Shown: positions 31,041-46,868 of the stretch, piece after piece | How positions within the stretch are numbered: the stretch's first letter is position 1 | Layout of the letters: every line of letters begins with the position of its first letter | Source: Minisyncoccota bacterium | Lineage (GTDB): Bacteria > Patescibacteriota > Minisyncoccia > Phycocordibacterales > UBA12088 | Length of the DNA stretch: 64,000 bases | Reading direction: 5' to 3' | NCBI GenBank assembly: GCA_041920275.1 | Contig: JAYRSE010000007.1 | Span: 20,517-84,516 of the forward strand | Translations under genes and position numbers: made by a program | Notes under the pieces: model-generated | Database searches by the model: none | Told to the model about the DNA's origin: nothing | Seen by the model: the letters and a program-made list of their open reading frames with translations, nothing else

Positions 31041-32723
31041 CTACTCGTCTTGCCTCGAGACAAATAGCCGCAAAAAACGGATCTCTTCGTACGCGTAACG
31101 ATGCGAAAGGTGTGTACGCAATGTCGTGAGACCCCACCCATATGTTCGAACCGCTTCAGCAACCTCATCAACCGCTTCTTCGAACGACTCATCATCGGGA
31201 GCAAGGTGTGCGATGTTGTCAACACGGAGAACTCCATCACGCAACAGATGCTCAAGGTGTGTCATGATCGTACCCTCGGTCAACCCTCGCTCATCCGCCA
31301 TCTCGCGTATGGTGAGACCTCCTTGGACCAACACTCGCGTCTTTTCATAGGTGCTCGCTTTTTTTTCTTTCTTCGTTCCCGCCGAACCTCTTGCCGGATC
31401 CGGTTCACTCCCTCCGCATGCATGCACGAACGCGCGGGTGAGCTCCCGCAAACGTTCTTCCGGTGTCGCGGCAAGACGTCGTGCGACCCGCTCGGAAGAC
31501 TCCAGGAAGAACCGATCCGCCTCGGCTACCGCCGGATGCCGCAGGTACGCGAGCTCGGATATGCCCTCAAGGTAGATACCCGAAAGCGAACGTACGCGCG
31601 AGAGCGATACGTACCCCTGCCCCTCGACAAAGGTCTTGCGCAGGTCCATCCGGGCCGCGTCGAGGGTAAGCCCTTGACTTTTATGTACCGTGACCGCCCA
31701 CGCAAGGCGGAGCGGGATCTGGATGAGCTCCGCCTTCACCTTGTCACCTTCCTCCATTTTCCAACTGTCCTCCTCGAGCTCAAGCTCGAAACCGCCGTGC
31801 GTCTGAATGACCGGTGTCCCGAATGCGTTGAACCGCACGATCGTACCGAGCGTACCGTTCACATACTTTCCTTGAGGGTGATTTTTGATACACATCACCG
31901 CCGCACCCTCTTTGAGCTGCAAGACTTCCGGCACCGAGGTTCCGCGCTTCAGTACTTCAAGATGCTTCTTACTTCCTTTGGTGCGCATATGAAAGGAGCG
32001 CACCGACCCCGGCAATCGTGCGAGCTGCTCGTTGTTCAAACGGTCCACATCAACGTTGTGGGTATAGAGGTGAGGCACTTCGCGAGCGGGAACGCATCCG
32101 ATACGCTCTTCAAGCACCGCACGCAACTCACGCGGAACGTGACCGGCTCGGATCCCGTTCAAAATGGCAAGCAGGGTCTCATCATCTTGTCGGTACTGCT
32201 CGTGCAGGTAACACACGTTGGGTGCGAGCGCATGCCACGCATCACTCCCGAACGCAAAACGCATCGTATCACCCCCGCGCACAACGGGAGGAAGCTGAAA
32301 AAAATCTCCACAGAGCACGACCTGCATACCGCCGAACGGCACATCGCTCGAAAGTCCGGCACGGATCGCCTGATCGACCAAGTCGAGCGTGGTGCCCGAA
32401 AGCATGGAAACCTCGTCGATAATGAGGACTTGGGTGTCCCGAAAACGTTTGACCAGTCGCTCGTTCTGTGCAATGTGATCGAGCTCGTACGGACCGAGAT
32501 ACTCCTTGACCCCCACACCCGACCAGCTGTGTACCGTCTGCCCTCCTATGTGCGTCGAAGCGATGCCGGTCGATGCGGTGATCGCCGGCTCGATACCGCG
32601 TTCACGCAACCATCGCACGTACCGGTTGATCACGTACGTCTTGCCGCTTCCCGCCGCACCGGTCAAAAACACGTTCTTACCAAGGCAAAGCACGGAAAAA
32701 GCTTCATCTTGTGTCATGCTCAT
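31041..32723 (-). CDS. PIF1/RecD-family SF1 helicase with a C-terminal HTH domain
   Basis: GAAGSGKTY Walker A. IIDEVSML Walker B. C-terminal LTIREMADERGLTEGTIMTHLEHLL HTH. Start at MSMTQDEAF. Confidence 0.75.
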   Translation of the reverse strand: MSMTQDEAFSVLCLGKNVFLTGAAGSGKTYVINRYVRWLRERGIEPAITASTGIASTHIGGQTVHSWSGVGVKEYLGPYELDHIAQNERLVKRFRDTQVLIIDEVSMLSGTTLDLVDQAIRAGLSSDVPFGGMQVVLCGDFFQLPPVVRGGDTMRFAFGSDAWHALAPNVCYLHEQYRQDDETLLAILNGIRAGHVPRELRAVLEERIGCVPAREVPHLYTHNVDVDRLNNEQLARLPGSVRSFHMRTKGSKKHLEVLKRGTSVPEVLQLKEGAAVMCIKNHPQGKYVNGTLGTIVRFNAFGTPVIQTHGGFELELEEDSWKMEEGDKVKAELIQIPLRLAWAVTVHKSQGLTLDAARMDLRKTFVEGQGYVSLSRVRSLSGIYLEGISELAYLRHPAVAEADRFFLESSERVARRLAATPEERLRELTRAFVHACGGSEPDPARGSAGTKKEKKASTYEKTRVLVQGGLTIREMADERGLTEGTIMTHLEHLLRDGVLRVDNIAHLAPDDESFEEAVDEVAEAVRTYGWGLTTLRTHLSHRYAYEEIRFLRLFVSRQDE

Positions 32724-32960
32724 CAGCGTACCACACTCTCTGGAAAGAACACACTTTTCCACAGTGTCTCCCTTGCGCGACACATACACGACGCATATAT
32801 TTGGAATTATGCATAAGAGCAACGCATTCGTACTCCTACTCGTTGTCGGAACGCGCCATGCGTCAGGTCCTTGTGCATAAACAACCAAAAAGAACCGCAC
32901 AAAAAACCTGACGCAAGTCGGGGATTTTTTGTACAAACAGCTCTTTCAAGGAGAATCGGG

Positions 32961-33149
32961 ATGGTATATTACAGCATCGAATTGACGACCCCGTGTGGCG
33001 CTGAACTCAAAGAGTGCAATCGCCTACCGGGATCGAGCCGCTGTGCCAAGAAGGTGAGCAACTGCACGTGCCCCTCAAGCAATGGTGTCTGCATTTCTCG
33101 CTGGTGCATCGGTAAAAAGATCTGCGTAGACGCCACACCGAAGGCGTGA
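32961..33149 (+). CDS. 62-aa Cys-rich small protein (8 Cys); candidate precursor or carrier peptide of the downstream ATP-grasp operon
   Basis: ATG with AAGGAG SD 7 nt upstream. MVYYSIELTTPCGAELKECNRLPGSSRCAKKVSNCTCPSSNGVCISRWCIGKKICVDATPKA. No signal peptide. Not in the ORF track as a separate call. Confidence 0.45.
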   Translation: MVYYSIELTTPCGAELKECNRLPGSSRCAKKVSNCTCPSSNGVCISRWCIGKKICVDATPKA

Positions 33150-33263
33150 TCGCACCCATACGGTACGTGTTCACCAAACACCTCTGCCCGCACGAAGGTA
33201 CCCTCAAATCCTCGCGTGCGCAAAAGGCCGACTGGGATCGGCCTTTTCCTATGATTCTGATCC

Positions 33264-33647
33264 TCACACCGGATTGAGCTTACGAAGGAGCAAACGACGT
33301 TGCTCGAGTTCCTTTCTTTGCAGCTCGAAATACACTCGTCCGGCCTTAGTGATCGAATACCTCTCACCATCCTTGATGACGTGCCCAAGTCGCTCATGCA
33401 TGTCCATAAAATGTTCGAGTGAGCACCACAGGCACGCGATCACTCGTTCGTCAACGGCCTCATGCGAAGCACCGGAAAGTGTGCGTCCCTCAAGCCACTC
33501 CTTCACCCGATCATGCGTTTCGGGTTGGACTCTGTTAAAGGCGTCCATCTGCCTTTTGATCTCTGCAAGCGTGATACCGTCACCGTCACGACCGAGCAAG
33601 GAAACACCCACGACGGTCACCCCGATCAGGTGATGCATCTTTTTCAT
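33264..33647 (-). CDS. hypothetical 127-aa protein (possible winged-helix regulator)
   Basis: ORF between the peptide gene and the ATP-grasp operon on the opposite strand. GERYSITKAGRVYFEL resembles a wing. Weak. Confidence 0.35.
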   Translation of the reverse strand: MKKMHHLIGVTVVGVSLLGRDGDGITLAEIKRQMDAFNRVQPETHDRVKEWLEGRTLSGASHEAVDERVIACLWCSLEHFMDMHERLGHVIKDGERYSITKAGRVYFELQRKELEQRRLLLRKLNPV

Positions 33648-33762
33648 GCGTCATCCTCCAAATCCAAATCTGCCTACATCGATAATAGCACCAAATTCGC
33701 ACGACACAACATACCAACCAACCCTCAAACCACCATTCCCACACCATGGTGACTTTGTTCGA

Positions 33763-33790
33763 TTGACATATCATGTAATGTCGATATATT
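33763..33790 (+). promoter_or_regulatory. sigma70-like promoter TTGACA-N16/17-TATATT upstream of the ATP-grasp operon
   Basis: TTGACA at 33763-33768 and TATATT/ATATTT at about 33785-33791. First in-frame ATG of the downstream gene is at 33811. Confidence 0.35.
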
Positions 33791-33810
33791 TATCGTGCGA
33801 CCACATACGC

Positions 33811-36309
33811 ATGCGGAGTCACCGGTGCACGACAGCATCCGATACGTCCTCACCATCATATCCGACCCACAACGTGAAAAAGAGACAAAACACCGAACAC
33901 TCCGAATTATCCGGAAAGACTATCATATTGGTCAACACCGGTTCGATGAAGAAAAAGTTCATCGTACAGCGACTGAAACAGCTCGGTCTTCGTATCATCG
34001 CAATCCATCATGAAAAGAACTGGGCCGCACCGTATGTCGATCGCTGGATACTCACCGACACCAAAAATCACACCAAGGCACTTGAAGATGTCGATTCGTT
34101 CCTGCACACACATACCGATCTTTCCGTGGATGGCATTCTTACCTTTTGGGAGGACGACGTGCTCTTGACCTCGAAGATCGCCGAGGAGCTTGACCTGATC
34201 AGCGTGCCGGTCGCAATTGCGCGGCAGGTGCGTGACAAATTTTTATTCAGGACGTTCTGTACCGAGAACGACATCCGCACACCAGAACATTTGCTTATTA
34301 AGGACGAACGGGATCTTGATCACGTCGTCGCCAACTTCACCTTCCCCGTCGTACTCAAGCCCACATTCGGCTCCGGGAGTGCATTTGTCATCAAGGCGCA
34401 AGACAAAGAGGAATTCTTCAATACGTACGAGTATATCGATCGCAACATATCTCCCAACATTGAATCTTCACTCAATGAGGGTCTCGATGTGCTGGTTGAA
34501 AGTTATATCGACGGCGACGAGGTCGATATCGATATCCTGCTCCAGAACGGAAAGATCAAATACTTTGCCATCGTCGACAACTATCGAACCGAGGAACCTT
34601 TTTTCATCGAAACCCAGCAAGCGATCCCCTCTGAACTTCCACGGAAGGACCAAGACGCGCTCGTGGAGATGGCCGAAACGGTGCTCGAAAAGTTGGGAAT
34701 CCAGAACGGCTGTATCCACTTCGAAGCAAAGGCGACTCGCCGGGGACCGGTACCGATCGAGATAAACCTCCGCATGGGGGGCGATGAGACCTACACATTC
34801 AGCAAAGAGGCATGGGGTGTTGATTTGATCGAGGGTGCGGCGAAGATCGCACTTGGAATATACCTCCCGAAGGTGCAAAAGCCGGATACCCCTCGAAAAT
34901 ACCTTATGAGCAACACGTTCACTCCGAAACAATCGGGACTTCTCGTCAAACTCGATGTAGACGAGCAAATAAAGAAAGTACCGGGCGTAGAGGAACTCTG
35001 TCTTTTCAAGCAAGCGGGCGATGCGGTATTGGTACCTCCCGAAGGATACGAGTATCTCGGTTGGATCGTGGTCTCGGGTGAGAATCCGCTCGATACGGAA
35101 CACAACTTCAACGAGGCACTGAAATGCATACGCTATGATGTCGCCCGATTCCACTCATCCTCTTCAATCGGGAAGACGCTTCGGCGAAACCGTTTTTCCA
35201 TGGCATCCGCCAACAAGGAACTCCTTGAAGGGGCGGCAAAGATCGAACGCATGCGACGCACCTCGATCAAGAACCAACGAAACCTGCATGTCGGTGTGGT
35301 CTACAACATGTTCCAAGAAGAAGATGGGGTCGTGGAAGCGGCACTCTCGGCAATGGGTACCGATATTGAGGAGGCACTCCATGAGCGCGGATATCAAACC
35401 ACCCCATTCGACATGAACGAACCCGTGCGCTGTATTAACGAGCTCAAGGGCAGCAATGTCGATATTGTATTCAATGCGTGTGGCAGGATCAACAATTCAA
35501 GCATGCTCAAGCCGCATGCGGCAGCGATTCTCGATATGTTGCGAATACCGTATACCGGATCCAATCCATTCACCCTCGGTCTCTGCAATGATAAGATACG
35601 GATCAAAAAGCTGCTCTCGTTCCACGGCATACCGACTCCGCGCTGGGATTACGCCTACACCATCGAGGATGACATCGACCAGACGCTCAAGTATCCACTC
35701 ATCGTAAAGCCGGCGAATACCGACAACTCGATCGGTATTACCAATGACTCGGTCGTCACCGATCGCGCACAGCTCCAGCAGCGACTCGCGTATGTCATTC
35801 ACGAACTCGGGAGTCCCGCGCTCATCGAGGAATACATCGACGGCGATGAATACGCGGTGCCGATCATCGGGAGCGAGGAAGACGACCTCCGAGTCCTTCC
35901 CCTCTCCCGCATTACGTTCGACACCTTGCCGAACGAGCTGTGGCACATCCTTCCGTACGATGCGAAGTGGGGGGACAAAACACCGTACGAAAAGATCTCC
36001 GTTGAGGAACCCTCGAAGAACACGAACAAGAAACTCGAGTCACTGATCACCGAGATCGCTCTCGACACGTACAATATACTCGATTGCCACGATTATGGTA
36101 TCGTGGAGATCAAGGTGGACAAAAACAGCAACCCATACGTACTTGAACTCAACCCGAACCAACACATGCGTACCGAGGACATACTTCCCCGTGCCGCACG
36201 GCTGGTGAAAATGAGCTACGCGGACCTGGTAGAAGAGATCATCCGAATCGCGATCAAACGATACGAGAACAGGCCACACTATTACCACCTGCAAACCGAC
36301 TCCATGTAG
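33811..36309 (+). CDS. di-domain ATP-grasp ligase (N-terminal ATP-grasp, C-terminal D-Ala-D-Ala-ligase-like ATP-grasp)
   Basis: Domain 1: FPVVLKPTFGSGSAFV ... ESYIDGDEVDIDIL ... HFEAKATRRGPVPIEINLRMGG. Domain 2: HVGVVYNMFQEE ... IVFNACGRINN ... LIVKPANTDNSIGIT ... EEYIDGDEYAVPIIG ... YVLELNPNQHM. Start uncertain (33811 ATG; could be GTG 33884). Confidence 0.7.
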   Translation: MRSHRCTTASDTSSPSYPTHNVKKRQNTEHSELSGKTIILVNTGSMKKKFIVQRLKQLGLRIIAIHHEKNWAAPYVDRWILTDTKNHTKALEDVDSFLHTHTDLSVDGILTFWEDDVLLTSKIAEELDLISVPVAIARQVRDKFLFRTFCTENDIRTPEHLLIKDERDLDHVVANFTFPVVLKPTFGSGSAFVIKAQDKEEFFNTYEYIDRNISPNIESSLNEGLDVLVESYIDGDEVDIDILLQNGKIKYFAIVDNYRTEEPFFIETQQAIPSELPRKDQDALVEMAETVLEKLGIQNGCIHFEAKATRRGPVPIEINLRMGGDETYTFSKEAWGVDLIEGAAKIALGIYLPKVQKPDTPRKYLMSNTFTPKQSGLLVKLDVDEQIKKVPGVEELCLFKQAGDAVLVPPEGYEYLGWIVVSGENPLDTEHNFNEALKCIRYDVARFHSSSSIGKTLRRNRFSMASANKELLEGAAKIERMRRTSIKNQRNLHVGVVYNMFQEEDGVVEAALSAMGTDIEEALHERGYQTTPFDMNEPVRCINELKGSNVDIVFNACGRINNSSMLKPHAAAILDMLRIPYTGSNPFTLGLCNDKIRIKKLLSFHGIPTPRWDYAYTIEDDIDQTLKYPLIVKPANTDNSIGITNDSVVTDRAQLQQRLAYVIHELGSPALIEEYIDGDEYAVPIIGSEEDDLRVLPLSRITFDTLPNELWHILPYDAKWGDKTPYEKISVEEPSKNTNKKLESLITEIALDTYNILDCHDYGIVEIKVDKNSNPYVLELNPNQHMRTEDILPRAARLVKMSYADLVEEIIRIAIKRYENRPHYYHLQTDSM

Positions 36310-36357
36310 TAACGTACAAGAGAGCGGCATTACCGACGCTAATTAAACACAGATACC

Positions 36358-37761
36358 ATGAATACACCGAACAGGCCGCTACCACAAGAGCTCGTTGTTG
36401 ACGGCAAAATCACCGACAGCGGGATCACGGTCGTCGTGAACAAAGAACGTTTTCCTATCCGCTATCCGAAGGCCATTTGGGCGAGCTACCCCGAGGATGC
36501 AAAGGCGGCGCTTTGCGATGCTCTGACGGTGAGTTCGACCATGTTCCTTCCCCAGATCTTGTCCCTTCCCGAAATACGCTACAAGACCGCACGAACCCTT
36601 GCCGAAACGTTCTTTTTCAAGAACGGCATCTACGACATGCCTTGCACGGCCATCTCGGATAAGAAATCGTCGATCACATACATCAAGGATTTCTTCAATG
36701 TTCGCTCGCATTTCGGCACCAATGTGATCCGAACCGTCCATACCGAACGTCCGATCTCGGACACGCCGACCGCCATCATCCCCTTCTCTTTCGGCAAAGA
36801 GAGCATGCTCACACTTGCCCTCTGTAAGGAGCTCGGCATCAGACCGATCCCGATCATTTTCATCGAACCTTCACACACCTTCGAACATGCGCACAAAAAG
36901 AAAATGATCGCTCTCTTCGAAAAGGAGTTCGACGTAAAGATATACATCACAGAGAATGCACCGGGTATTTTCAGGTATGGAAAATACTGGGGGTTTTCGA
37001 CGGAGCTTGGGTGGGGACTCCACACCACGGAATGTGCACTGCTTACACTTCCGTTTGCACACCACTTCAATGCGGACTACATCATCCTTGGAAACGAACA
37101 ATCATGCAACGATTTCTACATGAACAAAGAGGGTGTGCTCACATACTCCGCAGCCTATGATCAACACACCGACTGGACCACTCAACAAGGACTCCTTGCT
37201 TCCCTGTTGCTCGGTAGGGAGATCGAGGTTGCAAGCTTCATGGAGCCGCTGTACGAACTCGCGATACTGAAGGTGCTACACACTCGTTATCCTGCATACG
37301 GCGCGTACCAAATGTCGTGCTTTGCGAACAATGAACAGGCGAAAGAGGTACGGTGGTGCCAGAACTGCTCGAAATGCGCGTACGTCTATGCACTCTCAGC
37401 GGCCTCCGACATCGACCTTGAGCGCATGGGCTTCACGGAAAACCTGTTTGACAACGCGCACGCACACCTGTACACAGATTTCTTCAAAAAAAATGTTCCG
37501 GGTCTTGAGTATGGGACCAAGGAAGAGCTTGGCCTTGCATTCTTACTTGCCACCGACCGTGGCCGAACCGGTCACACGATCGATCTATTTCGAAAAAAGT
37601 CGTACGCTCATTTCGCCACACAGAAAGAAGAGCTCATGCGTCGGTACCTGGGCATCCACCCGTTCCAGAACATCCCGAACGATGTTTCCCCTGAGATCGT
37701 GCGCATATACGAACAAGAGCTCGGGGTATCCAAAACGAAAACACGTTTCCGTTCAAAATAG
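36358..37761 (+). CDS. PP-loop (adenine nucleotide alpha-hydrolase / PAPS-reductase-like) superfamily protein, specificity unknown
   Basis: IIPFSFGKESMLTLALCKELG resembles the vSFSGGKDS PP-loop. C-terminal CQNCSKCAYVY Cys cluster. Assignment from motif only. Confidence 0.45.
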   Translation: MNTPNRPLPQELVVDGKITDSGITVVVNKERFPIRYPKAIWASYPEDAKAALCDALTVSSTMFLPQILSLPEIRYKTARTLAETFFFKNGIYDMPCTAISDKKSSITYIKDFFNVRSHFGTNVIRTVHTERPISDTPTAIIPFSFGKESMLTLALCKELGIRPIPIIFIEPSHTFEHAHKKKMIALFEKEFDVKIYITENAPGIFRYGKYWGFSTELGWGLHTTECALLTLPFAHHFNADYIILGNEQSCNDFYMNKEGVLTYSAAYDQHTDWTTQQGLLASLLLGREIEVASFMEPLYELAILKVLHTRYPAYGAYQMSCFANNEQAKEVRWCQNCSKCAYVYALSAASDIDLERMGFTENLFDNAHAHLYTDFFKKNVPGLEYGTKEELGLAFLLATDRGRTGHTIDLFRKKSYAHFATQKEELMRRYLGIHPFQNIPNDVSPEIVRIYEQELGVSKTKTRFRSK

Positions 37762-37826
37762 TCCTTCCGGCCACACCATGTCAAGACGGGTAACTCATGA
37801 AAAGTACACATTCCACTTCACGCACC

Positions 37827-39110
37827 ATGGCGGTTTGGCTCAACATGCTGGAGCCCATCTTTTTTCACGAACGTGACCGCGATGGACTCTTGATCATCGC
37901 ACTCGATCACACTCCGGTCGCAGAGTACGCGCGGAAACACTACCGTTCCGACGAACTGCTTTTGGTATCAAGTACTCGACCGCTCCCATGTCCCACGTTC
38001 GACGAACTCCTTACCGAGACCGACCTTGCGGATCGACTCATGGAGCGATCGGTCACCCAACTCGCGGTACCGTACCGCACCAAGAAAGAGTACCGCGTGT
38101 GGGCTCGCGCTCACCACATCACGCTCATAACCCCTTCGGCACATATACAGAATCGCCTCGAGAACAAACGAGCGTTCCAACGACTGCTCGAAGGCCATGG
38201 CGTGCGTACACCCGCAGTACTTCGTGAACGAGCGCAGGTGCTGCCGGGAAAAACATACGTGATCCAAAAGAGCGTCGGCTCGGGCATGCTTGGCACCGAG
38301 TTTCTTCGAGCGGATGACGTGCGAGACATTCACTTCACCCGTTCAACCCTTGTCCGCGAGTACGTGGAGGGAATCCCTATCGGCGTAAGCATCATCATCG
38401 ATCGAGCGGGAATTGCGATCTTTTCGGCGACGCGAAGACAGTGTTTTGAGTACGAGAACGGCTTTCCGAAGACATTCCTCGGCATACAGTGGCTCCCTGC
38501 CGACTTCCTTTCGAAACAGACGATCGAATCGATCCGCCACGAACTAATGCGTGTCTGCTCGTTACTTCACACTGCATCCTTCGCCGGCATGGCCAACATC
38601 GACCTCGTCATAGCACACGACCGCGCGTACGTACTTGAATGCAATCCGCGCCTCTCTGCGTCGACCCCACAACTCTTTTCCGTACCGGGACTCACCGCAC
38701 ATGCGGAACCGTGGCCACTCTATGTGCGCGCCTGTTTACGCAAGCGATTCGACCTGTCAAATACTCTTATTTGTCACATTCCCAAGAGCCCCTACATGGG
38801 CTCCACGCTCGATATCGACGTGCCTGCATGTTCCGACACAACACACGTTCCCCCCGTGGGGACCTACCGCCTCACCCCCGCCGGCGTGTCTTTTGTCGAA
38901 AAGGATCGACACCTATCGGATGATCACAACACGTTCTTCCTTTTTCACGAACTCAGCGAACCACATACCCGCATACAACAAGCATTCACGCTCGCGAGCA
39001 TCTACAGCAACACGCCACTCTACGACCACACCACCGGCACCTTGAACGCGCACGGATCAAAACTGCGCACTGCCGTATGTACCTTATTCGGTTACCATCC
39101 CACCCCATGA
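37827..39110 (+). CDS. ATP-grasp domain enzyme (third ATP-grasp module of the operon)
   Basis: NKRAFQRLLEGHGVRTP ... YVIQKSVGSGMLGTEF ... VREYVEGIPIGVSII ... MANIDLVIAHDRAYVLECNPRLS. Confidence 0.65.
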   Translation: MAVWLNMLEPIFFHERDRDGLLIIALDHTPVAEYARKHYRSDELLLVSSTRPLPCPTFDELLTETDLADRLMERSVTQLAVPYRTKKEYRVWARAHHITLITPSAHIQNRLENKRAFQRLLEGHGVRTPAVLRERAQVLPGKTYVIQKSVGSGMLGTEFLRADDVRDIHFTRSTLVREYVEGIPIGVSIIIDRAGIAIFSATRRQCFEYENGFPKTFLGIQWLPADFLSKQTIESIRHELMRVCSLLHTASFAGMANIDLVIAHDRAYVLECNPRLSASTPQLFSVPGLTAHAEPWPLYVRACLRKRFDLSNTLICHIPKSPYMGSTLDIDVPACSDTTHVPPVGTYRLTPAGVSFVEKDRHLSDDHNTFFLFHELSEPHTRIQQAFTLASIYSNTPLYDHTTGTLNAHGSKLRTAVCTLFGYHPTP

Positions 39111-40468
39111 ATACACACAATGACAGGACGCCACCACTCGTTTCCGAAGTGATGAAAGCGGAACTTCGTAAGAAATTCACGCGTATTTTGCGCGAAGAAT
39201 ATACCGGATCCGCACGAAGCTTGCTACCGGTCGTACGAGGCGTGCGCCGGAAGCGCGATCGATTCCTCGAGATCGTCCGGACGCATGGCACACCGTGCTT
39301 CGTGCTCGATGAAGAGGCGCTTGAAGACTCGCTCGAATCGTTCGATCGAGCGTTCAAGGCGATTCCCGACCTGGAAACATACTATGCGATAAAAGTGAAC
39401 GACCACCCGGTTGTATTGCGTACGATCGTTGAACATGGGTACGGACTGGACGCTTCGAGCGAACGTGAGCTCCGTCTTGCGATCGAAGCGGGAGCGAAAC
39501 GGATCATATACACCGGTCCCGCAAAGAGCCGCGCGGGACTTTCTCTTGCACTCGAACACGCCTCCAAGGTGGTAGTGCACCTCGACAGTTTTCACGAACT
39601 TGCACTCCTCGCGGAGGTCACTTCCGCACAAGAACGGGCAATCGTTGCGGGAGTACGGATCACCTCGGCGTCCGCGTGGAACAAATTCGGCATACCGCTT
39701 GAAGACCTGCGCCGATTCTATGACCTCGCCCGCAACCATCCGAGCATTGACCTATGCGGTATTCAGACACATCGGAGTTGGAACACGGACCACGAACCGT
39801 ACGTGGATACGATGCGTCAGGTTGCAACATACCTTGCGGACCATTTCACCACCGAAGAACGCGCCGGTTTCCGTTTTTACGACTTTGGTGGCGGTTTTGT
39901 CCCCGATGCAACGGAAGGAGAGCACCCGTGGTATTCGCCACAAGGAAAAGTGGTACGAGCCATCTACGAATACTTCGAGGAAGAAGCCCCCTTCCCCTAC
40001 AAACACCACACGTTCCGCTCATCACCACTGCGCGAATACGCACGCGGTATCGCCGTCGGTATAAAAAACCACCTCCGACCGACCCTTCCGAATGCACGGT
40101 ACATGACGGAGCCGGGTCGCATCATTGCCGACAGTGCGATGCATGTGCTGCTTCGTATAGCGGATCGCAAGGAAGGACTCATTATCGCGGATGGCGGCTT
40201 GAACATGATCGGATATGAGCGTTATGAAGATGAGTACTTTCCCATCGTAAACCTTACACATCCGGGAAAAAAGGAGATTGACTGCATGGTCTACGGCTCA
40301 CTCTGCATGATGCAAGACCGCTGGGGATACTCATGCTTCGCATCAAAACTCGAGATCGGTGACGTGCTCGTGGTACCGAACCAAGGCGCCTTGACCTACT
40401 CGCTCTCACAAGACTTCATTCACGGCAAACCCCCGGTGCACATACTTCCTCGTTCATCACGGAAGTGA
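39107..40468 (+). CDS. PLP-dependent decarboxylase, fold type III (diaminopimelate/ornithine decarboxylase family)
   Basis: TPCFVLDEEAL ... YAIKVNDHPVVLRTIVEHGYGLDASSERE (PLP lysine) ... FDFGGGF. Start ATG overlaps the upstream stop (ATGA). Confidence 0.75.
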   Translation: MNTHNDRTPPLVSEVMKAELRKKFTRILREEYTGSARSLLPVVRGVRRKRDRFLEIVRTHGTPCFVLDEEALEDSLESFDRAFKAIPDLETYYAIKVNDHPVVLRTIVEHGYGLDASSERELRLAIEAGAKRIIYTGPAKSRAGLSLALEHASKVVVHLDSFHELALLAEVTSAQERAIVAGVRITSASAWNKFGIPLEDLRRFYDLARNHPSIDLCGIQTHRSWNTDHEPYVDTMRQVATYLADHFTTEERAGFRFYDFGGGFVPDATEGEHPWYSPQGKVVRAIYEYFEEEAPFPYKHHTFRSSPLREYARGIAVGIKNHLRPTLPNARYMTEPGRIIADSAMHVLLRIADRKEGLIIADGGLNMIGYERYEDEYFPIVNLTHPGKKEIDCMVYGSLCMMQDRWGYSCFASKLEIGDVLVVPNQGALTYSLSQDFIHGKPPVHILPRSSRK

Positions 40469-40561
40469 GATTGTCGATCAGTTAAGACCTGGGGTGTTTA
40501 CTTGTATCTCAATATGTTGTATCTTCATGCAAGACCTACATAACCGATAGCGGAGGTACCC

Positions 40562-40699
40562 ATGCATCACTGCGAATGTGGAAAACGCATCACCAAGATC
40601 CTGGTGCGCGGCAAGCAAAGGCCGCCACCGGACATACATCACAACCTCTGTACGAGATGTTGGAGGAGGCTCCTCGAGACACTAAGATGGTATTATTGA
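40562..40699 (+). CDS. 45-aa zinc-ribbon-like micro-protein
   Basis: GGAGG SD 7 nt upstream. MHHCECGKRITKILVRGKQRPPPDIHHNLCTRCWRRLLETLRWYY (CxC ... CxxC). Below the ORF-track length cut-off. Confidence 0.3.
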   Translation: MHHCECGKRITKILVRGKQRPPPDIHHNLCTRCWRRLLETLRWYY

Positions 40700-40752
40700 T
40701 CCCGGAAACCCACGACGGCAACGTCGTGGGTCTGTTCGTATCTGACTACCGC

Positions 40753-41694
40753 CTAAAGCGGCATGAGGCCATTCACCACAAGCTCTGCACATACGAACGT
40801 GAGCCAAAAGAGAAAGAGTGCGCCCGCCTCTTTCTTTGAAATGACGTGCCCGGTCTTCATAAAACGGAACAACATGAACGATGCGACGACCATGAACATG
40901 CCGGTCACATAGATGATGCGGTGCGGGAAGTCGAACGGGTGAATAAGTGCCAAAAGCCCTACCACGACGGTCGCGTCCGCAAGGACCGTACCGAGTATGT
41001 CACCGAGTGCGAGCGAATCATCGCGCTTACGTACCGAACGAAGCGAGAAGAAGAGTTCCGGCATGGTGGTACCGAGCCCGATCACGAACATGCCGATCAA
41101 CACCACACTCACCCCGAGGTCCGACGCAAGCGCTTCAGCCGCGATGACGGCGAAATGGGCACCGACAAGCAAGGTCGCCATGCTGAGAAGAAGCATGAGG
41201 AACGATCGACGCCATCCGTCATGCTTTGGCACCGGCAAGGTGCCATCGGTACCATCACGGAGTGCGATGTAGTAGAACACCCCACCTGCAATGATGAGGG
41301 CAAGCCCGTCGAGGCGCGAATAGTGGCCGTTGAGACCGAGCACGACCGGGAGCAGCAGCATGAGCGGATACACGAGGTGATTTTTAACGATCTTTCCCTC
41401 GATCGAAAGTCCGCGCCGCGCAAAAAAGACGATGATCGCGACAATGAGCGTAAGGTCCGCAATATTCGAACCGAGCAAGGTACCGAGACCGAGCGATGGA
41501 ATACCTTCGAGCGCGGCGTTCACGGCGATCATGGTTTCGGGGAGTATGGAAATGACCGCCACGATGATGAAACCCACCGCATATTTCGAAAGGCGAAAAT
41601 GTCTTGCGAGCAACGCCGCGTACCGTGTCGCGAGCGTCGCCCCTTTCCCTACCAGAAAGAGTGCGGCCGCGAGAATGAAGAGGTCGTTCGTCAT
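40753..41694 (-). CDS. Na+/Ca2+ exchanger family (CaCA) membrane antiporter
   Basis: Two alpha-repeat motifs GSNIADLTLIVAII and GTTMPELFFSL. About 10 TM. Confidence 0.75.
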   Translation of the reverse strand: MTNDLFILAAALFLVGKGATLATRYAALLARHFRLSKYAVGFIIVAVISILPETMIAVNAALEGIPSLGLGTLLGSNIADLTLIVAIIVFFARRGLSIEGKIVKNHLVYPLMLLLPVVLGLNGHYSRLDGLALIIAGGVFYYIALRDGTDGTLPVPKHDGWRRSFLMLLLSMATLLVGAHFAVIAAEALASDLGVSVVLIGMFVIGLGTTMPELFFSLRSVRKRDDSLALGDILGTVLADATVVVGLLALIHPFDFPHRIIYVTGMFMVVASFMLFRFMKTGHVISKKEAGALFLFWLTFVCAELVVNGLMPL

Positions 41695-41708: not shown

Positions 41709-43682
41709 CTATCGTCCCTCACCCGACGTCTTTTTTTTCAGAGTATCAAGCTTCTTCATGTACGCCAGGAACGTGAGAATGTACTGCGCGTGACTCCAGA
41801 TGAGCGGAGTGACCGAAGTTGGAGCGTGGGTTACAGGATGATACTGCTCGGCAAAAAGACCGGCCTCGTTCGCACGCCGCTTCATCCACTCGAGCCGTCG
41901 CCGAGGCATTTCCAGGTCCTGCAGGTCCTTTGCGCGCGCGATCTCATACTCTGCGACCCAACACGTGGTGACCACCCACGGATTACTTGCCGCATCGTGG
42001 TGTGCGAAGTATCGATCGCCATCGTAGCGCGCTATGCCGATACCCTCCACATCGGTCGTCAGCGCAGCACAGGTGCGTTCGTACACTCGCTCCAGGATCG
42101 GATCGTCCGGTGGGAGAACACCGAAGCGAAAGAGGCCGTAAAAGCTCGAGACGTCGACCGTCTCATCGAGCGATTGCTCGCCATGACTGGAAACAATGCA
42201 CTTCGCAGCGCGCCCATCTTGTGAGACAAGTGTACGCATGATACCATCACGCACCTCCTCGGCAGCAGTCCCCCATCTCCTGCAAGAAACCTCCTTACCA
42301 AGCAACTTGGCGAAAGATGCGGCGGTGGTAAGTGCCGCATATACCACACTTGACGTGTACGTGAACGCGCCCACACGCTCTTCCCACAGATCATGACTCG
42401 GAAGCGGCAGCTTCGTCTTTTTGTCTCTGTATCGAGCGAGAAAGTCGGCGACACGACGGATGTACGGGTTGTACATCTCCTCAATGAACTCGACATCATG
42501 CGTGAGCTCATAATGTCTCCCGAGGGCGATCAAAGTGATCGCGGTTTCATCTTCTTGAATGGGTGGCTGCGCACGTCCATCGCGCACCCACGGATGCCAC
42601 GAACTCCCGAGCGAACGATCGGTACGATATTTATGGAGCAGATATCCGTCGTCCGTAAGTGTTTCCTGTGCAAACTTGTGGAACGAACGCGAGATCGTGG
42701 TGTGACCGGTCTCCAAAAATGCGAGCACCACGTACGCCGAATCTCTGGGCCAACAGTAGCTGTAGGTATCACGCCCACTCTGCAAGATACTCGAATCGCC
42801 GGATGCGACCACCGCTCCGCCATTGTCCGTATGCGTGCGCATGACCAAAAGCGACCTGCGACACAATGTGACGAGCTCAGGATCGATACCTTCGGGGTGA
42901 CACCCCGGCCGATCCACCCAAGCCCTCCAGTAGTCCATAGTGGTCCTCAACAGATGCATGGGGCTTCTGGTCAAAATGTCACGATGGTGCCGTTCAACGA
43001 CGCGATACGACTGCCCCACCGCGATCCAGTATGAAAGCGAACGCGAACCCTTGCTTCGCACCGTCATGGTCAAGCCGAGCACCGAGTCGACACTGCCGTG
43101 TTCAATGCCGCTCTTCGAAAGAACGCCGTCCTCGGCATCACGCCACGTACCCTCTCTACCTTCGATACCCAGGAGACCAACCCCATAGTCATCAAAGAAG
43201 TCTTCGTCGCTTCGCGCTGAGACGAGGATGACTCGACGCCCCTTGTAGTGCACCAGTGCCTGCAACTCCGGCGAGTAGTACGCCGTATCCCCGCGCTCCG
43301 TCTCACTTATATGAAACTGTTGATTGAAAAAAACCTTGAACACGCGGTCGCGGTCGAAGAGATTCTCAACCGTTACCGAGCGCACGAAAATGTCATGTTC
43401 ATTGTAGACGATGTCGAAAAAAGAGAGAGCGATACCCGCCTCACGATGCACCGCGCGCACCGCACCGACCAACGTGTCCTTCTCATAGGTTACCTGCACC
43501 TCAAAGCCACCACCGGAAAGCCAGTGCATCGCACCGTCCACGAAAACACCAATACGATGCATGAGACGTTCACCAACATGGTTCTCAAGACCGACCTGGG
43601 GAAAATAGAAGTCGCGCACCTGACCCCACTCATCGTACACGATGAGGACATTCCCATTTCCCAATACGAGTGAGCGAGCCAT
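41709..43682 (-). CDS. GH15-family glycoside hydrolase (glucoamylase / glucodextranase / trehalase-like)
   Basis: DNGGAVVASGDSSILQSGRDTYSYCWPRDSAYVVLAF, including the GH15 WPRD block. 657 aa. Confidence 0.75.
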   Translation of the reverse strand: MARSLVLGNGNVLIVYDEWGQVRDFYFPQVGLENHVGERLMHRIGVFVDGAMHWLSGGGFEVQVTYEKDTLVGAVRAVHREAGIALSFFDIVYNEHDIFVRSVTVENLFDRDRVFKVFFNQQFHISETERGDTAYYSPELQALVHYKGRRVILVSARSDEDFFDDYGVGLLGIEGREGTWRDAEDGVLSKSGIEHGSVDSVLGLTMTVRSKGSRSLSYWIAVGQSYRVVERHHRDILTRSPMHLLRTTMDYWRAWVDRPGCHPEGIDPELVTLCRRSLLVMRTHTDNGGAVVASGDSSILQSGRDTYSYCWPRDSAYVVLAFLETGHTTISRSFHKFAQETLTDDGYLLHKYRTDRSLGSSWHPWVRDGRAQPPIQEDETAITLIALGRHYELTHDVEFIEEMYNPYIRRVADFLARYRDKKTKLPLPSHDLWEERVGAFTYTSSVVYAALTTAASFAKLLGKEVSCRRWGTAAEEVRDGIMRTLVSQDGRAAKCIVSSHGEQSLDETVDVSSFYGLFRFGVLPPDDPILERVYERTCAALTTDVEGIGIARYDGDRYFAHHDAASNPWVVTTCWVAEYEIARAKDLQDLEMPRRRLEWMKRRANEAGLFAEQYHPVTHAPTSVTPLIWSHAQYILTFLAYMKKLDTLKKKTSGEGR

Positions 43683-43709
43683 GGCATGTTACCGTACACC
43701 CCGGATGTA

Positions 43710-44132
43710 CTACTTGCAGCAGGGTGAACGCAGTGCTTGCATCGTCTTCGCACGACTCGTGGCACCCTCGACCCGCGAAGCAAGCGCGTCTTTACCAAAA
43801 CAATCACGGAGCCATACCGCAAAATCGTTTCCATTACGCCTCGTGTGGTAGGAATACTGCTCGTCGGTCATCTCCCCAAGGGCCTCCATGAGCTCCGCAA
43901 CCGAGGAGACCACCGGCCCGTGGTGGATCCAGAACGCTTCTTCCGGTTTACATGCGGCGCGACACACGCATGCTGTGTCCCTGGTCGATGTTTTCTTTAC
44001 GGCGACACGCTTGCTCGCAGTCGTCGTACGCTTCTCCTTCACTACGGTCGACGGCGTTCGTGTCTCTTTCTTCTGCTTTGGGGTGGACGCCTTTTCTTCC
44101 ACCTTTTTCTGAGCCGGGGTCTTTGTAGGCAT
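43710..44132 (-). CDS. hypothetical protein with Lys-rich N-terminal tail
   Basis: MPTKTPAQKKVEEKASTPKQKKETR ... followed by a C-terminal globular part. No family recognised. Confidence 0.4.
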   Translation of the reverse strand: MPTKTPAQKKVEEKASTPKQKKETRTPSTVVKEKRTTTASKRVAVKKTSTRDTACVCRAACKPEEAFWIHHGPVVSSVAELMEALGEMTDEQYSYHTRRNGNDFAVWLRDCFGKDALASRVEGATSRAKTMQALRSPCCK

Positions 44133-44136
44133 ATGT

Positions 44137-46634: not shown

Positions 46635-46868
46635 TGTATGAACTATGCCGGCACGCGCGTTACGGCTTGCACGCCCCGCATTGCTTTTCAGTATACACCA
46701 AAACGGTATTCGGCATGCCGAACGCTGTGCATAACTCACAAATTCCTCTGATCGAGCGTCGCGAACGAGGTGTTGTCATACGAAAGAAACCGGGTATCTG
46801 CCGCGTAGTACACAGCAGACCGATCGGAAATACATTACCTATTCAACAATAAATAATGAACTAAACGT

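What the first reader, a model, noticed from the sequence alone, without database searches (positions are those of the whole stretch)
32961..40699. Uncharacterised ATP-grasp-centred operon: Cys-rich peptide, di-ATP-grasp ligase, PP-loop-like ATPase, ATP-grasp, fold-III PLP decarboxylase
Genes, all on the + strand and tightly packed:
- a 62-aa peptide with 8 Cys and a strong AAGGAG SD;
- an 887-aa protein with two complete ATP-grasp domains, the second clearly D-Ala-D-Ala-ligase-like;
- a 467-aa protein with a PP-loop-like SFGKES motif;
- a 437-aa ATP-grasp enzyme;
- a LysA-type PLP decarboxylase whose ATG overlaps the previous stop (ATGA).
A 45-aa zinc-ribbon ORF with GGAGG SD follows. A near-consensus sigma70-like promoter lies at 33763-33790. 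The true housekeeping ddl is elsewhere (13349-14422), so the Ddl-like domain here is a second, specialised copy.

Known systems that combine these chemistries do not fit:
- LysW/LysX-type amino-group carrier pathways: the small protein lacks the acidic EDWGE tail.
- Butirosin BtrI/BtrJ/BtrK (ATP-grasp ligase plus DAP-decarboxylase-like enzyme on a tethered gamma-glutamyl): no ACP here.
- Graspetide RiPPs (precursor plus ATP-grasp): the core does not resemble T/S-D/E crosslink motifs and is Cys-rich.
- L-amino-acid-ligase pathways, and mycosporine-like-amino-acid MysC/MysD (ATP-grasp plus Ddl-like): no DDGS or O-methyltransferase here.

Three ATP-grasp modules, an adenylating-type PP-loop enzyme and a decarboxylase suggest stepwise amide ligation onto a peptide or protein C-terminus or side chains, followed by decarboxylation to an amine. 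This may be a new peptide-modification or small-peptide metabolite pathway.
Basis: partly seen in the sequence, partly recalled or inferred. Interest (0 to 1): 0.85.

Follow-up and report, generated by a model that had tools for sequence, protein, structure and literature searches.

The report
Uncharacterised amide-ligase operon, not peptide-modifying
The four enzyme genes form a real operon that recurs in many ultra-small bacteria and archaea and probably builds a small unusual peptide-like metabolite from free amino acids, whereas the nearby Cys-rich mini-protein is a real gene with no evidence of being the operon's substrate.

Summary
The genes exist largely as described, but the architecture and interpretation need correcting. 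One conserved promoter (33763-33790) drives four genes:
- a fused L-amino-acid-ligase/Ddl-like ATP-grasp protein (about 811 aa, GTG start at 33874);
- a PP-loop ATPase with a QueC fold, distantly related to the ATP-dependent peptide epimerase MurL;
- a third ATP-grasp enzyme;
- a DAP-decarboxylase-family PLP enzyme that lacks the DAP-binding motifs and resembles FslC at the catalytic-Cys motif.

The 62-aa Cys-rich ORF is a genuine coding gene. However, it is a separate unit, cut off from the operon by a hairpin and a minus-strand gene. I found it only in three closely related genome groups with the same local gene order.

The enzyme set recurs in many CPR phyla. Its core pair, a MurL-like enzyme next to a Ddl-like ligase, is adjacent in 46 of 80 loci, including DPANN and Bathyarchaeia archaea, and never with this peptide. 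Frequent partners are dipeptide epimerases, GNAT/Fem-like transferases and DegT-like PLP enzymes.

The best reading is a non-ribosomal small-molecule pathway that ligates, activates or epimerises a C-terminus, ligates again and decarboxylates. The product is unknown. In this lineage the Ddl-like domain has lost its catalytic Arg. I found no paper describing this cluster. It is moderately to highly interesting, but it is not a RiPP.

The parts
33763..33790 (+). Sigma70-like promoter of the operon (TTGACA, 16 nt spacer, TATATT).
   Evidence: Matches 11 of 12 positions and is the best + strand site in 32800-40900. Both hexamers and the spacer core are invariant in L007 and L012 while the flanks diverge.
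33874..36309 (+). Fused di-ATP-grasp protein of about 811 aa. The N half is L-amino-acid-ligase-like (ATP-grasp_N, ATP-grasp_4, LAL_C2). The C half is Ddl-like but has DdlB R255->I. The mechanical ORF extends upstream to 33646.
   Evidence: Pfam and NCBIfam. PDB hits are BL00235 LAL 3vot at 4.6e-26 and Ddl 3r23 at 9e-25. The GTG start is conserved in relatives. Residue table.
36358..37761 (+). PP-loop ATPase of 467 aa with a QueC-like fold and distant relatedness to MurL. It carries SFGKES and an invariant Cys set (C321, C334, C337, C340).
   Evidence: NCBIfam MurL model at E 4e-7, colinear over 136-367 against 137-359 of 447; all 28 family members hit it, best 6e-12. AF2 model pLDDT 92. Foldseek top hits are QatC, QueC (TMt 0.69), YcfA and Cap9, then ThiI, TtuA, TilS and ArgG. 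Invariant residues.
37797..39110 (+). Stand-alone ATP-grasp enzyme (437 aa, or 427 aa from the alternative ATG at 37827).
   Evidence: Pfam ATP-grasp_3 at 2e-16. Weak best NCBIfam hit to MfnD, tyramine-glutamate ligase, at 2.5e-6. AF2 pLDDT 91.5; nearest folds are biotin-carboxylase-type ATP-grasps at TM about 0.58. The LECNPR Mg-binding motif is invariant. It lies immediately upstream of the decarboxylase in most of the loci that carry both genes.
39107..40468 (+). Fold-III PLP decarboxylase of the DAPDC family. It is not a bona fide LysA.
   Evidence: Orn_Arg_deC_N at 2e-28. lysA scores 139 bits against a cut-off of 298; FslC model 91 bits. PDB hits are TmDAPDC 2yxx, FslC 7kh2 and BtrK. The DAP-binding IRPALY and CES motifs are replaced by GYERY and CMM, and FslC has CMQ. 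ATGA overlap with the previous gene.
32961..33149 (+). Neighbour, not part of the conserved cluster. A 62-aa Cys-rich small protein gene specific to this lineage.
   Evidence: Codon-position differences between the window and L007 are 15/14/35, with 22 synonymous and 21 non-synonymous codon changes. Indels are in frame, the SD is conserved and 4-5 Cys are invariant. Found only in L007-L012. No called homologue in 5.8 billion protein clusters.
33264..33647 (-). A 127-aa gene of unknown function, transcribed divergently from the operon. It separates the peptide gene from the operon. A regulatory role is possible but untested.
   Evidence: ORF. Called as a gene in L011. 42% identical in L012, with a minus-strand gene at the same place in L007. 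No Pfam, NCBIfam or PDB match.

Best explanation
This is a four-gene operon for a non-ribosomal pathway that works on small molecules, not on a protein or peptide substrate. It builds a short, modified peptide-like amine from free amino acids.

Proposed order of steps (all inferred):
1. The LAL-type ATP-grasp domain joins two amino acids through an acyl-phosphate intermediate.
2. The MurL-related, QueC-fold PP-loop enzyme adenylates the new terminal carboxylate. By analogy with MurD2/MurL it most likely inverts that residue from L to D in an ATP-driven, one-way step. Amide formation is the alternative outcome.
3. The stand-alone ATP-grasp enzyme adds a further amino acid or amine.
4. The DAPDC-family decarboxylase, whose catalytic-Cys motif resembles FslC's, removes the alpha-carboxylate of an amino-acid moiety whose alpha-amino acid end is still free. 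This leaves a terminal amine.

In this lineage the Ddl-like domain has probably lost ligase activity and may only bind substrate or act as a scaffold.

Shown: the domain identities, the operon structure, and conservation of the gene set and of the core pair across CPR bacteria and archaea. Inferred: the substrates, the order of steps, epimerase versus amidase chemistry, and the product.
For: - Operon structure: one conserved promoter, gaps of 48 and 35 nt, and one ATGA overlap.
- Conservation: the same gene set recurs in Jacksonbacteria, Roizmanbacteria, Falkowbacteria, Peribacteraceae, Parcubacteria and other CPR genomes.
- Core pair: the MurL-like gene lies next to a Ddl-like ATP-grasp gene in 46 of 80 loci (29 stand-alone, 17 fused), including Bathyarchaeia, Woesearchaeota and Nitrososphaeria.
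- Accessory genes are all enzymes of free amino-acid or dipeptide chemistry:
  - L-Ala-D/L-Glu-epimerase-like enolase enzymes in 13 loci, scoring 166-209 bits to NF041118;
  - DegT-like PLP proteins in 11 loci;
  - GNAT, Acetyltransf_6 and LPG_synthase_C-like transferases;
  - a KamA-type aminomutase and ThrC-like PLP enzymes in archaea.
- PP-loop enzyme: all 28 family members hit the MurL model and the fold is QueC-like. MurL is an ATP- and Mg-dependent, AMP-forming, one-way epimerase that acts after the ligase MurD2 (PMC5808125, PMC8788868).
- Decarboxylase: it lacks the DAP-binding motifs, its catalytic-Cys motif (CMM) matches FslC's (CMQ) rather than DAPDC's (CES), and FslC and BtrK, which decarboxylate an amino acid already attached through its side chain, are among its PDB sequence hits behind the DAP decarboxylases.
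- No carrier protein, Mur ligase, protease or transporter is conserved with the cluster.
Against: - No substrate or product is known, and every chemical step rests on analogy.
- Similarity to MurL is distant: 29 bits against an equivalog cut-off of 700.
- The closest solved folds (QueC, Cap9, QatC) make amides or protein conjugates, not epimers.
- Many clusters already carry an enolase-type dipeptide epimerase, which would make a second epimerase partly redundant.
- The Ddl-like domain that defines the conserved core is degenerate in this very operon (R255->I). The window version may therefore work differently from the archaeal core pair.
- AG437 has no informative close relative.
Confidence: 0.55

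Rival explanations
1. The PP-loop enzyme is an amide-forming synthetase, not an epimerase. It adenylates the peptide's terminal carboxylate and ammonia or an amine attacks. The product would be a capped dipeptide amide or amine, for example a compatible solute. This follows the logic of NAGGN synthesis (Ngg, a GNAT plus ATP-grasp enzyme, and then AsnO, a PP-loop amidotransferase) or of QueC (carboxylate to amide).
For: The closest solved folds are QueC, QatC, YcfA and Cap9, which are carboxylate-adenylating amide or nitrile formers. The QueC-like invariant Cys cluster and PP-loop are present. In archaea the core pair is often followed by a GNAT acetyltransferase. That gives exactly the NAGGN enzyme set of GNAT, ATP-grasp and PP-loop. 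The NAGGN pathway itself is recalled from my own knowledge, not from a tool result.
Against: The only characterised sequence relative detected by profile search is MurL (28 of 28 members). No glutaminase domain or partner is present. The window operon has no GNAT.
Confidence: 0.22
2. The cluster supplies or remodels peptidoglycan-type building blocks. One version is racemase-independent synthesis of D-residue dipeptides, such as L-Ala-D-Glu or D-Ala-D-X, plus a diamino acid. The other is salvage of D-amino-acid peptides taken from hosts.
For: The enzyme families are those of stem-peptide chemistry: Ddl-like, MurL-like, L-Ala-D/L-Glu-epimerase-like, Fem/LPG_synthase_C-like and DAPDC-like. In this lineage the operon lies about 4 kb downstream of ftsA-ftsZ.
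Against: The core pair is common in Bathyarchaeia and DPANN archaea, which have no murein. No Mur ligase or UDP-sugar gene is conserved with it. The D-Ala-binding residues of Ddl and the DAP-binding residues of LysA are not kept. A normal ddl exists elsewhere in the window.
Confidence: 0.15
3. One reading: the enzymes modify the 62-aa Cys-rich peptide or protein by stepwise ligation onto its C-terminus or side chains, followed by decarboxylation.
For: The small gene is real and under purifying selection. Its N-terminal 47 residues are conserved and its C-terminal ~15 residues vary, which resembles a precursor peptide. It lies within 0.9 kb of the operon in all three closely related genome groups. 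QueC-like Cap9 and QatC do modify proteins.
Against: It is convergent with a minus-strand gene, is followed by a hairpin and is not in the operon. It is absent near more than 70 other clusters. A scan for intergenic ORFs of 30-110 aa with at least 4 Cys around the clusters found only unrelated ORFs in seven loci, two of which (L026/L027) share one ORF. The relatives that do carry it also share the neighbouring PIF1 helicase gene in the same order, so the co-occurrence has no independent weight. It has no acidic or LysW-like tail. No protease or exporter is present.
Confidence: 0.05
4. These are ordinary housekeeping genes that happen to be neighbours: a second Ddl, LysA and a CarB-like fragment.
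For: The best named NCBIfam hits are Ddl and LysA.
Against: All scores fall far below the curated cut-offs. Substrate-binding residues are not kept. The gene order is conserved across phyla and domains.
Confidence: 0.03

Closest known systems
MurD2/MurL alternative peptidoglycan pathway of Xanthomonas (PMC5808125, PMC8788868)
   Same: A ligase adds an L-amino acid. A dedicated ATP-dependent, AMP-forming enzyme then acts on the new C-terminal carboxylate. The 467-aa family is the only family here with detectable sequence homology to MurL, and it is almost always adjacent to an amide ligase.
   Different: The score is 29 bits against the model's cut-off of 700. The partner is an ATP-grasp enzyme (Ddl or LAL type), not a Mur-ligase-family MurD2. 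No UDP-MurNAc context is present. The family occurs in archaea. Epimerase activity is untested.
QueC and the QueC-like conjugating enzymes Cap9 and QatC (PP-loop ATPases)
   Same: They share the fold (Foldseek probability 1.0, TM 0.69 to QueC), a PP-loop, and a four-Cys cluster in the same region. The Zn-binding role of that cluster in QueC is recalled from my own knowledge.
   Different: The 467-aa protein has extra N-terminal (1-135) and C-terminal helical (340-467) domains. It shows no deazaguanine or defence-system context and only 12-13% identity.
L-amino-acid ligases (BL00235, BacD/YwfE, DdaF)
   Same: The N half has the ATP-grasp_N, ATP-grasp_4 and LAL_C2 architecture and its best PDB hit is BL00235 at 4.6e-26.
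   Different: It is fused to a Ddl-like domain and embedded in an operon with a PP-loop enzyme and a decarboxylase. The substrates are unknown.
FslC (N-citrylornithine decarboxylase, rhizoferrin) and BtrK (gamma-Glu-ACP decarboxylase, butirosin)
   Same: They are DAPDC-family paralogues working in pathways where an amide or thioester bond is made first and the still-free alpha-amino-acid end is decarboxylated afterwards. Like FslC, this enzyme has C-M in place of the DAPDC C-E motif. FslC is its second-best PDB hit.
   Different: No NIS synthetase (FslA-type) and no ACP is present. Identity is low. The enzyme has an insertion of about 60 residues (query positions 268-329) with no counterpart in the DAPDC alignments.
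NAGGN osmolyte pathway (Ngg and AsnO)
   Same: It uses the same three chemistries as the archaeal version of the cluster: a GNAT, an ATP-grasp dipeptide ligase and a PP-loop enzyme acting on the C-terminal carboxylate.
   Different: AsnO is an AsnB-type enzyme with a glutaminase domain, and Ngg is a GNAT/ATP-grasp fusion. Neither architecture is present here, and the window operon has no GNAT. The comparison is recalled from my own knowledge.

Membership tests
[quoted passage not shown] | Score at or above the equivalog cut-off of 700 bits. | tested here: not met
   28.8 bits for the window protein. The best of 28 family members reaches E 6e-12.
[quoted passage not shown] | Homologous, colinear core domain. 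| tested here: met
   Residues 136-367 align to profile positions 137-359 of 447. All 28 of 28 members hit the model.
[quoted passage not shown] | Genomic pairing with a MurD2-type Mur ligase. | tested here: not met
   The neighbours are ATP-grasp ligases. No Mur ligase occurs in the operon or in the related loci surveyed.
[quoted passage not shown] | ATP-dependent L-to-D epimerisation of a C-terminal residue. | not testable with these tools
   This needs an enzyme assay with chiral analysis.
PP-loop ATP pyrophosphatase superfamily (QueC-like) | PP-loop motif (SGGxDS-type) and the alpha/beta ATPase fold. | tested here: met
   In SFGKES, G146 and K147 are invariant and F145 and S149 are nearly invariant. 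Foldseek hits QueC at TMt 0.69 with probability 1.0, followed by ThiI, TtuA, TilS, ArgG and GMP synthase.
PP-loop ATP pyrophosphatase superfamily (QueC-like) | QueC-type Cys cluster (C...CxxCxxC). | tested here: met
   C321, C334, C337 and C340 are invariant in 28 sequences. Metal binding itself was not tested.
D-alanine--D-alanine ligase (Ddl) | Curated family score (NF002378 cut-off 243; TIGR01205 cut-off 246). | tested here: not met
   181 and 133 bits respectively.
D-alanine--D-alanine ligase (Ddl) | DdlB substrate and catalytic residues E15, S150, Y216, R255, G276 and S281. | tested here: not met
   In the window protein S150, Y216, R255, G276 and S281 are N, W, I, H and D. E15 aligns inconsistently between the two alignments. 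The window's separate ddl keeps all of them.
L-amino-acid ligase (LAL) | ATP-grasp core plus the LAL_C2 domain above the gathering score. | tested here: met
   LAL_C2 scores 49.5 bits against a cut-off of 29.4 and ATP-grasp_4 scores 107 bits. Best PDB hit is BL00235 LAL. Activity was not tested.
Diaminopimelate decarboxylase (LysA, TIGR01048) | Equivalog score and the motifs that bind the distal groups of DAP (IRPALY, CES). | tested here: not met
   139 bits against a cut-off of 298. The motifs are GYERY and CMM instead. The PLP Lys, the GGG loop and EPGR are kept.
Graspetide or other ATP-grasp RiPP | A precursor peptide gene co-transcribed or co-conserved with the ATP-grasp gene. | tested here: not met
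   The peptide gene is a separate unit with an opposite-strand gene in between. It is absent from more than 70 related clusters.
LysW/LysX amino-group carrier system | A small Zn-ribbon carrier with an acidic C-terminal tail (EDWGE-type) and a RimK/LysX-type ligase. | tested here: not met
   The C-termini are ...DATPKA...RATVQA and ...RETIPT, and there are no CxxC pairs. The LysX model reaches only 51 bits against a cut-off of 276.
Butirosin BtrI/BtrJ/BtrK | An acyl carrier protein in the cluster. | tested here: not met
   No ACP or PP-binding domain appears in the operon or in related clusters.

The most novel reading that the evidence does not exclude
The pair of a Ddl-type ATP-grasp ligase and a MurL-like PP-loop enzyme is a general ligate-then-epimerise module. 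It would let CPR bacteria, and also DPANN and Bathyarchaeia archaea, make peptides ending in a D-residue without racemases. In the CPR operons the module is extended by a second ligase and a decarboxylase acting on an already-ligated amino acid (FslC/BtrK-style logic). The product would be a previously unknown D-residue peptidyl-amine, for example an envelope component or a solute.
Probability: 0.3. Interest if true: 0.75.

Novelty: new variant of a known kind. Interest (0 to 1): 0.6.

Why it matters
CPR bacteria and DPANN archaea have very reduced metabolism, so a multi-enzyme biosynthetic cluster kept across many of their phyla is likely to make something important for their lifestyle.

The cluster would extend the MurL type of ATP-driven peptide epimerase, or a QueC-like carboxylate activator, well beyond the few proteobacterial and actinobacterial peptidoglycan cases known, and into archaea.

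It also gives a concrete four-gene set that can be expressed heterologously to discover the product.

For annotation, it shows that the 'Ddl' and 'LysA' calls in these genomes are misleading.

Tried and rejected
- **Known RNA element at the peptide locus:** rejected. The whole 64-kb window has no Rfam hit and no tRNA. The codon-position pattern shows protein coding.
- **Homologue search for the 62-aa protein:** found nothing, so its distribution rests on tblastn against fetched loci only.
- **Exact look-up of the window's 467-aa protein:** failed. The cluster representative P0001 then led to the same genome (L011).
- **Reaching true MurL sequences through the tail of the 1.84-billion-protein profile search:** the tail members tested are not MurL. 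No direct profile-profile comparison with MurL was therefore possible.
- **AFDB50 fold search:** unavailable.
- **Fold search for AG437:** gave only generic biotin-carboxylase-type ATP-grasp matches, so no subfamily could be assigned.
- **PDB and Pfam searches of the 127-aa divergent gene:** gave nothing meaningful.
- **Literature searches for this cluster:** five searches found no paper. PF26298, which is precomputed on some homologues, is not in the local Pfam copy and could not be named.
- **Terminator after the peptide gene:** the hairpin is not statistically exceptional (z -1.5). It is treated only as consistent with a terminator.
- **LysW-like carrier, graspetide, butirosin and MAA readings:** rejected on the features listed in the membership tests.

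Full report
**1. What is in the sequence**

- A 62-aa ORF lies at 32961-33149 with 8 Cys. AAGGAG sits 7 nt upstream of its ATG.
- A long ORF ending at 36309 has two halves.
  - The N half is an L-amino-acid-ligase-type ATP-grasp (ATP-grasp_N, ATP-grasp_4 at 1e-30, LAL_C2 at 5e-13). Its best PDB hit is BL00235 LAL 3vot at 4.6e-26.
  - The C half is Ddl-like (Dala_Dala_lig_C at 2.7e-29).
- A 467-aa protein has no Pfam family.
- A 437-aa protein is an ATP-grasp_3 enzyme.
- A fold-III PLP decarboxylase starts with an ATG that overlaps the previous stop as ATGA.

Three points of the description are wrong or incomplete.

First, the peptide ORF is not packed with the enzymes. A 127-aa minus-strand gene (33264-33647) lies between them. 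It is called as a gene in a second assembly of the same genome (L011) and is 42% identical in relative L012. A hairpin flanked by A and T tracts (about 33222-33247, -17 kcal/mol, z only -1.5) sits between the two convergent genes.

Second, the promoter-like site at 33763-33790 matches 11 of 12 positions and is the best + strand match in the region. It lies inside the mechanical 887-aa ORF. Its hexamers and spacer core are invariant in two relatives while the flanks diverge. A GTG at 33874 followed by KK(R/K)Q is also conserved and is the start chosen by gene callers in relatives. The protein is therefore about 811 aa, like its homologues of 808-827 aa.

Third, the inter-gene gaps are 48 nt, 35 nt and -4 nt. 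This is consistent with one transcription unit spanning 33874-40468.

**2. The 62-aa gene is real but not linked to the operon**

tblastn finds the ORF only in L007-L010, L011 (this genome) and L012. These are close relatives whose MurL-like proteins are 78-83% identical to the window's. They also share the neighbouring PIF1 helicase gene in the same order; L007 additionally carries ftsA-ftsZ upstream and L012 shares ftsZ and the downstream genes.

Between the window and L007 the differences fall 15/14/35 over codon positions 1/2/3, with 22 synonymous and 21 non-synonymous codon changes. Indels are in frame and the SD is kept. It is therefore a genuine small protein gene that no gene caller reported and that has no called homologue. 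Four to five Cys are invariant, and the C-terminal ~15 residues vary.

None of the other ~75 loci carrying the enzyme cluster has it. A scan for intergenic ORFs of 30-110 aa with at least 4 Cys around those clusters found only unrelated ORFs in seven loci, two of which (L026/L027) share one ORF. Co-occurrence limited to genomes that also share the neighbouring genes in the same order carries no independent weight.

**3. The 467-aa protein**

All 28 aligned family members hit NCBIfam's MurL model. The window protein scores E 4e-7 with a colinear match (136-367 against 137-359 of 447), and the best member reaches 6e-12. These scores are far below the equivalog cut-off of 700 bits.

An AlphaFold model built from that alignment has pLDDT 92. 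Its nearest solved folds are QatC, QueC (TM 0.69 over QueC), YcfA and Cap9, followed by ThiI, TtuA, TilS, argininosuccinate synthase and GMP synthase. This is a QueC-like PP-loop ATPase. Within SFGKES, G146 and K147 are invariant and F145 and S149 are nearly invariant; C321, C334, C337 and C340 are invariant.

MurL is an ATP- and Mg-dependent, AMP-forming, one-way epimerase of the C-terminal L-Glu that the ligase MurD2 has just added (PMC5808125, PMC8788868). QueC-type enzymes adenylate a carboxylate and form an amide. Either way, the shared chemistry is adenylation of a carboxylate.

A profile search of 1.84 billion representatives gives 184 clusters at E<=1e-30 and 1357 at E<=1e-3. This is a modest, distinct family.

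**4. Comparative genomics**

Homologues occur in Jacksonbacteria, Roizmanbacteria, Falkowbacteria, Gracilibacteria, Peribacteraceae, Gottesmanbacteria, Parcubacteria and other CPR groups. At 33-36% identity they also occur in Woesearchaeota, Nanoarchaeota, Iainarchaeota, Bathyarchaeia and Nitrososphaeria/Aigarchaeota.

Across 80 genome loci, the MurL-like gene lies next to a Ddl-like ATP-grasp gene in 46. In 29 the Ddl-like gene is stand-alone (about 336 aa) and in 17 it is the LAL-Ddl fusion. Many of the remaining loci are cut by contig ends.

Other recurrent neighbours, counted within 4 kb of the MurL-like gene, are:
- the DAPDC-family decarboxylase (13 loci);
- an enolase-superfamily L-Ala-D/L-Glu-epimerase-like protein (13 loci, 166-209 bits to NF041118);
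- a weakly DegT-like PLP protein (11 loci);
- the 437-aa ATP-grasp (9 loci), which lies immediately upstream of the decarboxylase in most loci that carry both;
- GNAT, Acetyltransf_6 and LPG_synthase_C-like transferases.

Archaeal variants differ in composition.
- Bathyarchaeia: a ThrC-like PLP enzyme transcribed divergently, then MurL-like, Ddl-like and GNAT genes.
- DPANN: a MurL-like gene with two tandem Ddl-like genes.
- One archaeal locus (L041): Ddl-like, GNAT, ATP-grasp, decarboxylase, MurL-like and a KamA-type aminomutase.

The window carries the compact four-gene version. Every recurrent partner acts on free amino acids or dipeptides. No carrier protein, protease, exporter or Mur ligase is conserved with the cluster.

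**5. Residue-level checks**

The window's separate ddl (13349-14422, minus strand) keeps all the DdlB residues examined. In the Ddl-like half of the fusion, S150, Y216, R255, G276 and S281 are N, W, I, H and D; E15 aligns inconsistently between the two alignments. From my own knowledge, R255 and G276 form the DdlB oxyanion hole.

The Arg is lost in several fused lineages (I, Q, K, E or N), and four of them also lose Mg ligands. The stand-alone archaeal Ddl-likes nearly all keep the full catalytic set. In this operon the Ddl-like domain is therefore probably not a working ligase.

The decarboxylase keeps the PLP Lys, the GGG loop, EPGR and the catalytic Cys. It replaces the DAPDC motifs IRPALY and CES with GYERY and CMM, and FslC has CMQ at the second motif. 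Its PDB sequence hits include FslC (second best) and BtrK, behind and among DAP decarboxylases. Both decarboxylate an amino acid that is already linked through its side chain.

AG437 models confidently (pLDDT 91.5). It resembles only generic biotin-carboxylase-type ATP-grasps, and its best family hit is a weak one to MfnD, tyramine-glutamate ligase.

**6. Interpretation**

The evidence supports a non-ribosomal small-molecule pathway. The proposed steps are:
1. dipeptide formation by the LAL domain;
2. adenylation of the new C-terminus by the MurL-related enzyme;
3. a further ATP-grasp ligation;
4. decarboxylation of a moiety that still has a free alpha-amino acid end, giving a terminal amine.

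For step 2, epimerisation is favoured by sequence kinship and by the ligase-partner logic. Amide formation is favoured by fold neighbours and by the GNAT/ATP-grasp/PP-loop parallel with NAGGN synthesis.

All chemical steps are inferred. Gene identities, operon structure and conservation are shown.

The peptidoglycan-supply rival fits the enzyme families, but the archaeal distribution and the missing D-Ala- and DAP-binding residues count against it. The peptide-modification model has little support left.

**7. Novelty**

Searches of the paper library returned only the MurL/MurD2 papers and nothing on this cluster.

The individual chemistries are known, namely LAL ligases, MurD2/MurL, and the FslC and BtrK decarboxylases. 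The conserved combination and its spread across CPR, DPANN and Bathyarchaeia appear undescribed. I rate it a new variant of a known kind, with interest 0.6.

Noticed in passing
window 32961-33149 (+): An unannotated 62-aa Cys-rich protein gene under purifying selection. Differences are enriched at third codon positions, indels are in frame, and 4-5 Cys are invariant with a variable C-terminal tail. No gene caller reported it in any assembly, and there is no homologue in the protein database. Its function is unknown.
   Followed up: yes
window 33264-33647 (-): A 127-aa gene transcribed divergently from the operon promoter region. A minus-strand gene sits at the same position in relatives L007 (190 aa) and L012 (137 aa, 42% identical). 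It has no family or structure match. It could be a small regulator of the operon.
   Followed up: partly
window 40562-40699 (+): A 45-aa Cys/His-rich ORF that is 68-75% identical in relatives L009 and L012. In L012 it lies about 1.5 kb beyond the decarboxylase with another gene in between, so it is not tied to the operon.
   Followed up: partly
L012-L031, L056, L067 (fused di-ATP-grasp genes): The Ddl-like C-terminal domain of the fusion protein has lost the catalytic Arg (DdlB R255) in several CPR lineages. In L020, L026, L027 and L029 it has also lost Mg-binding residues. The stand-alone archaeal Ddl-likes nearly all keep everything. This looks like repeated decay into a pseudo-enzyme domain.
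   Followed up: partly
L001 5102-6511 and 10001-11395; L032 6463-7860 and 9998-11380: Some clusters carry two paralogous MurL-like genes. Some DPANN loci (L046, L061, L077) carry two tandem Ddl-like genes next to one MurL-like gene.
   Followed up: no
window 41709-46739 (-): A glycogen or alpha-glucan gene set lies immediately downstream: a GH15 glucoamylase-like gene and, by the Pfam annotation of the identical contig L011, a GH57 gene and a GT4/GT5 glycogen-synthase-like gene. A Na+/Ca2+ exchanger gene lies at 40753-41694.
   Followed up: no
window 31041-32936 (-): A PIF1-family helicase with a C-terminal HTH_40 domain flanks the cluster. A PIF1 helicase also sits directly upstream of the cluster in the distant Jacksonbacteria locus L001, there on the same strand as the cluster. 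This may be retained gene order or coincidence.
   Followed up: no
window 1-64000: The whole 64-kb window has no tRNA gene and no Rfam family at gathering threshold.
   Followed up: yes
L033, L034, L066, L070-L077 and others (mostly Gottesmanbacteria-type loci): A 215-aa spermidine-synthase-like, SAM-fold protein is transcribed divergently from the MurL-like/Ddl-like pair in 12 loci, next to secA. This may be lineage-specific gene order or a hint of a polyamine link.
   Followed up: no
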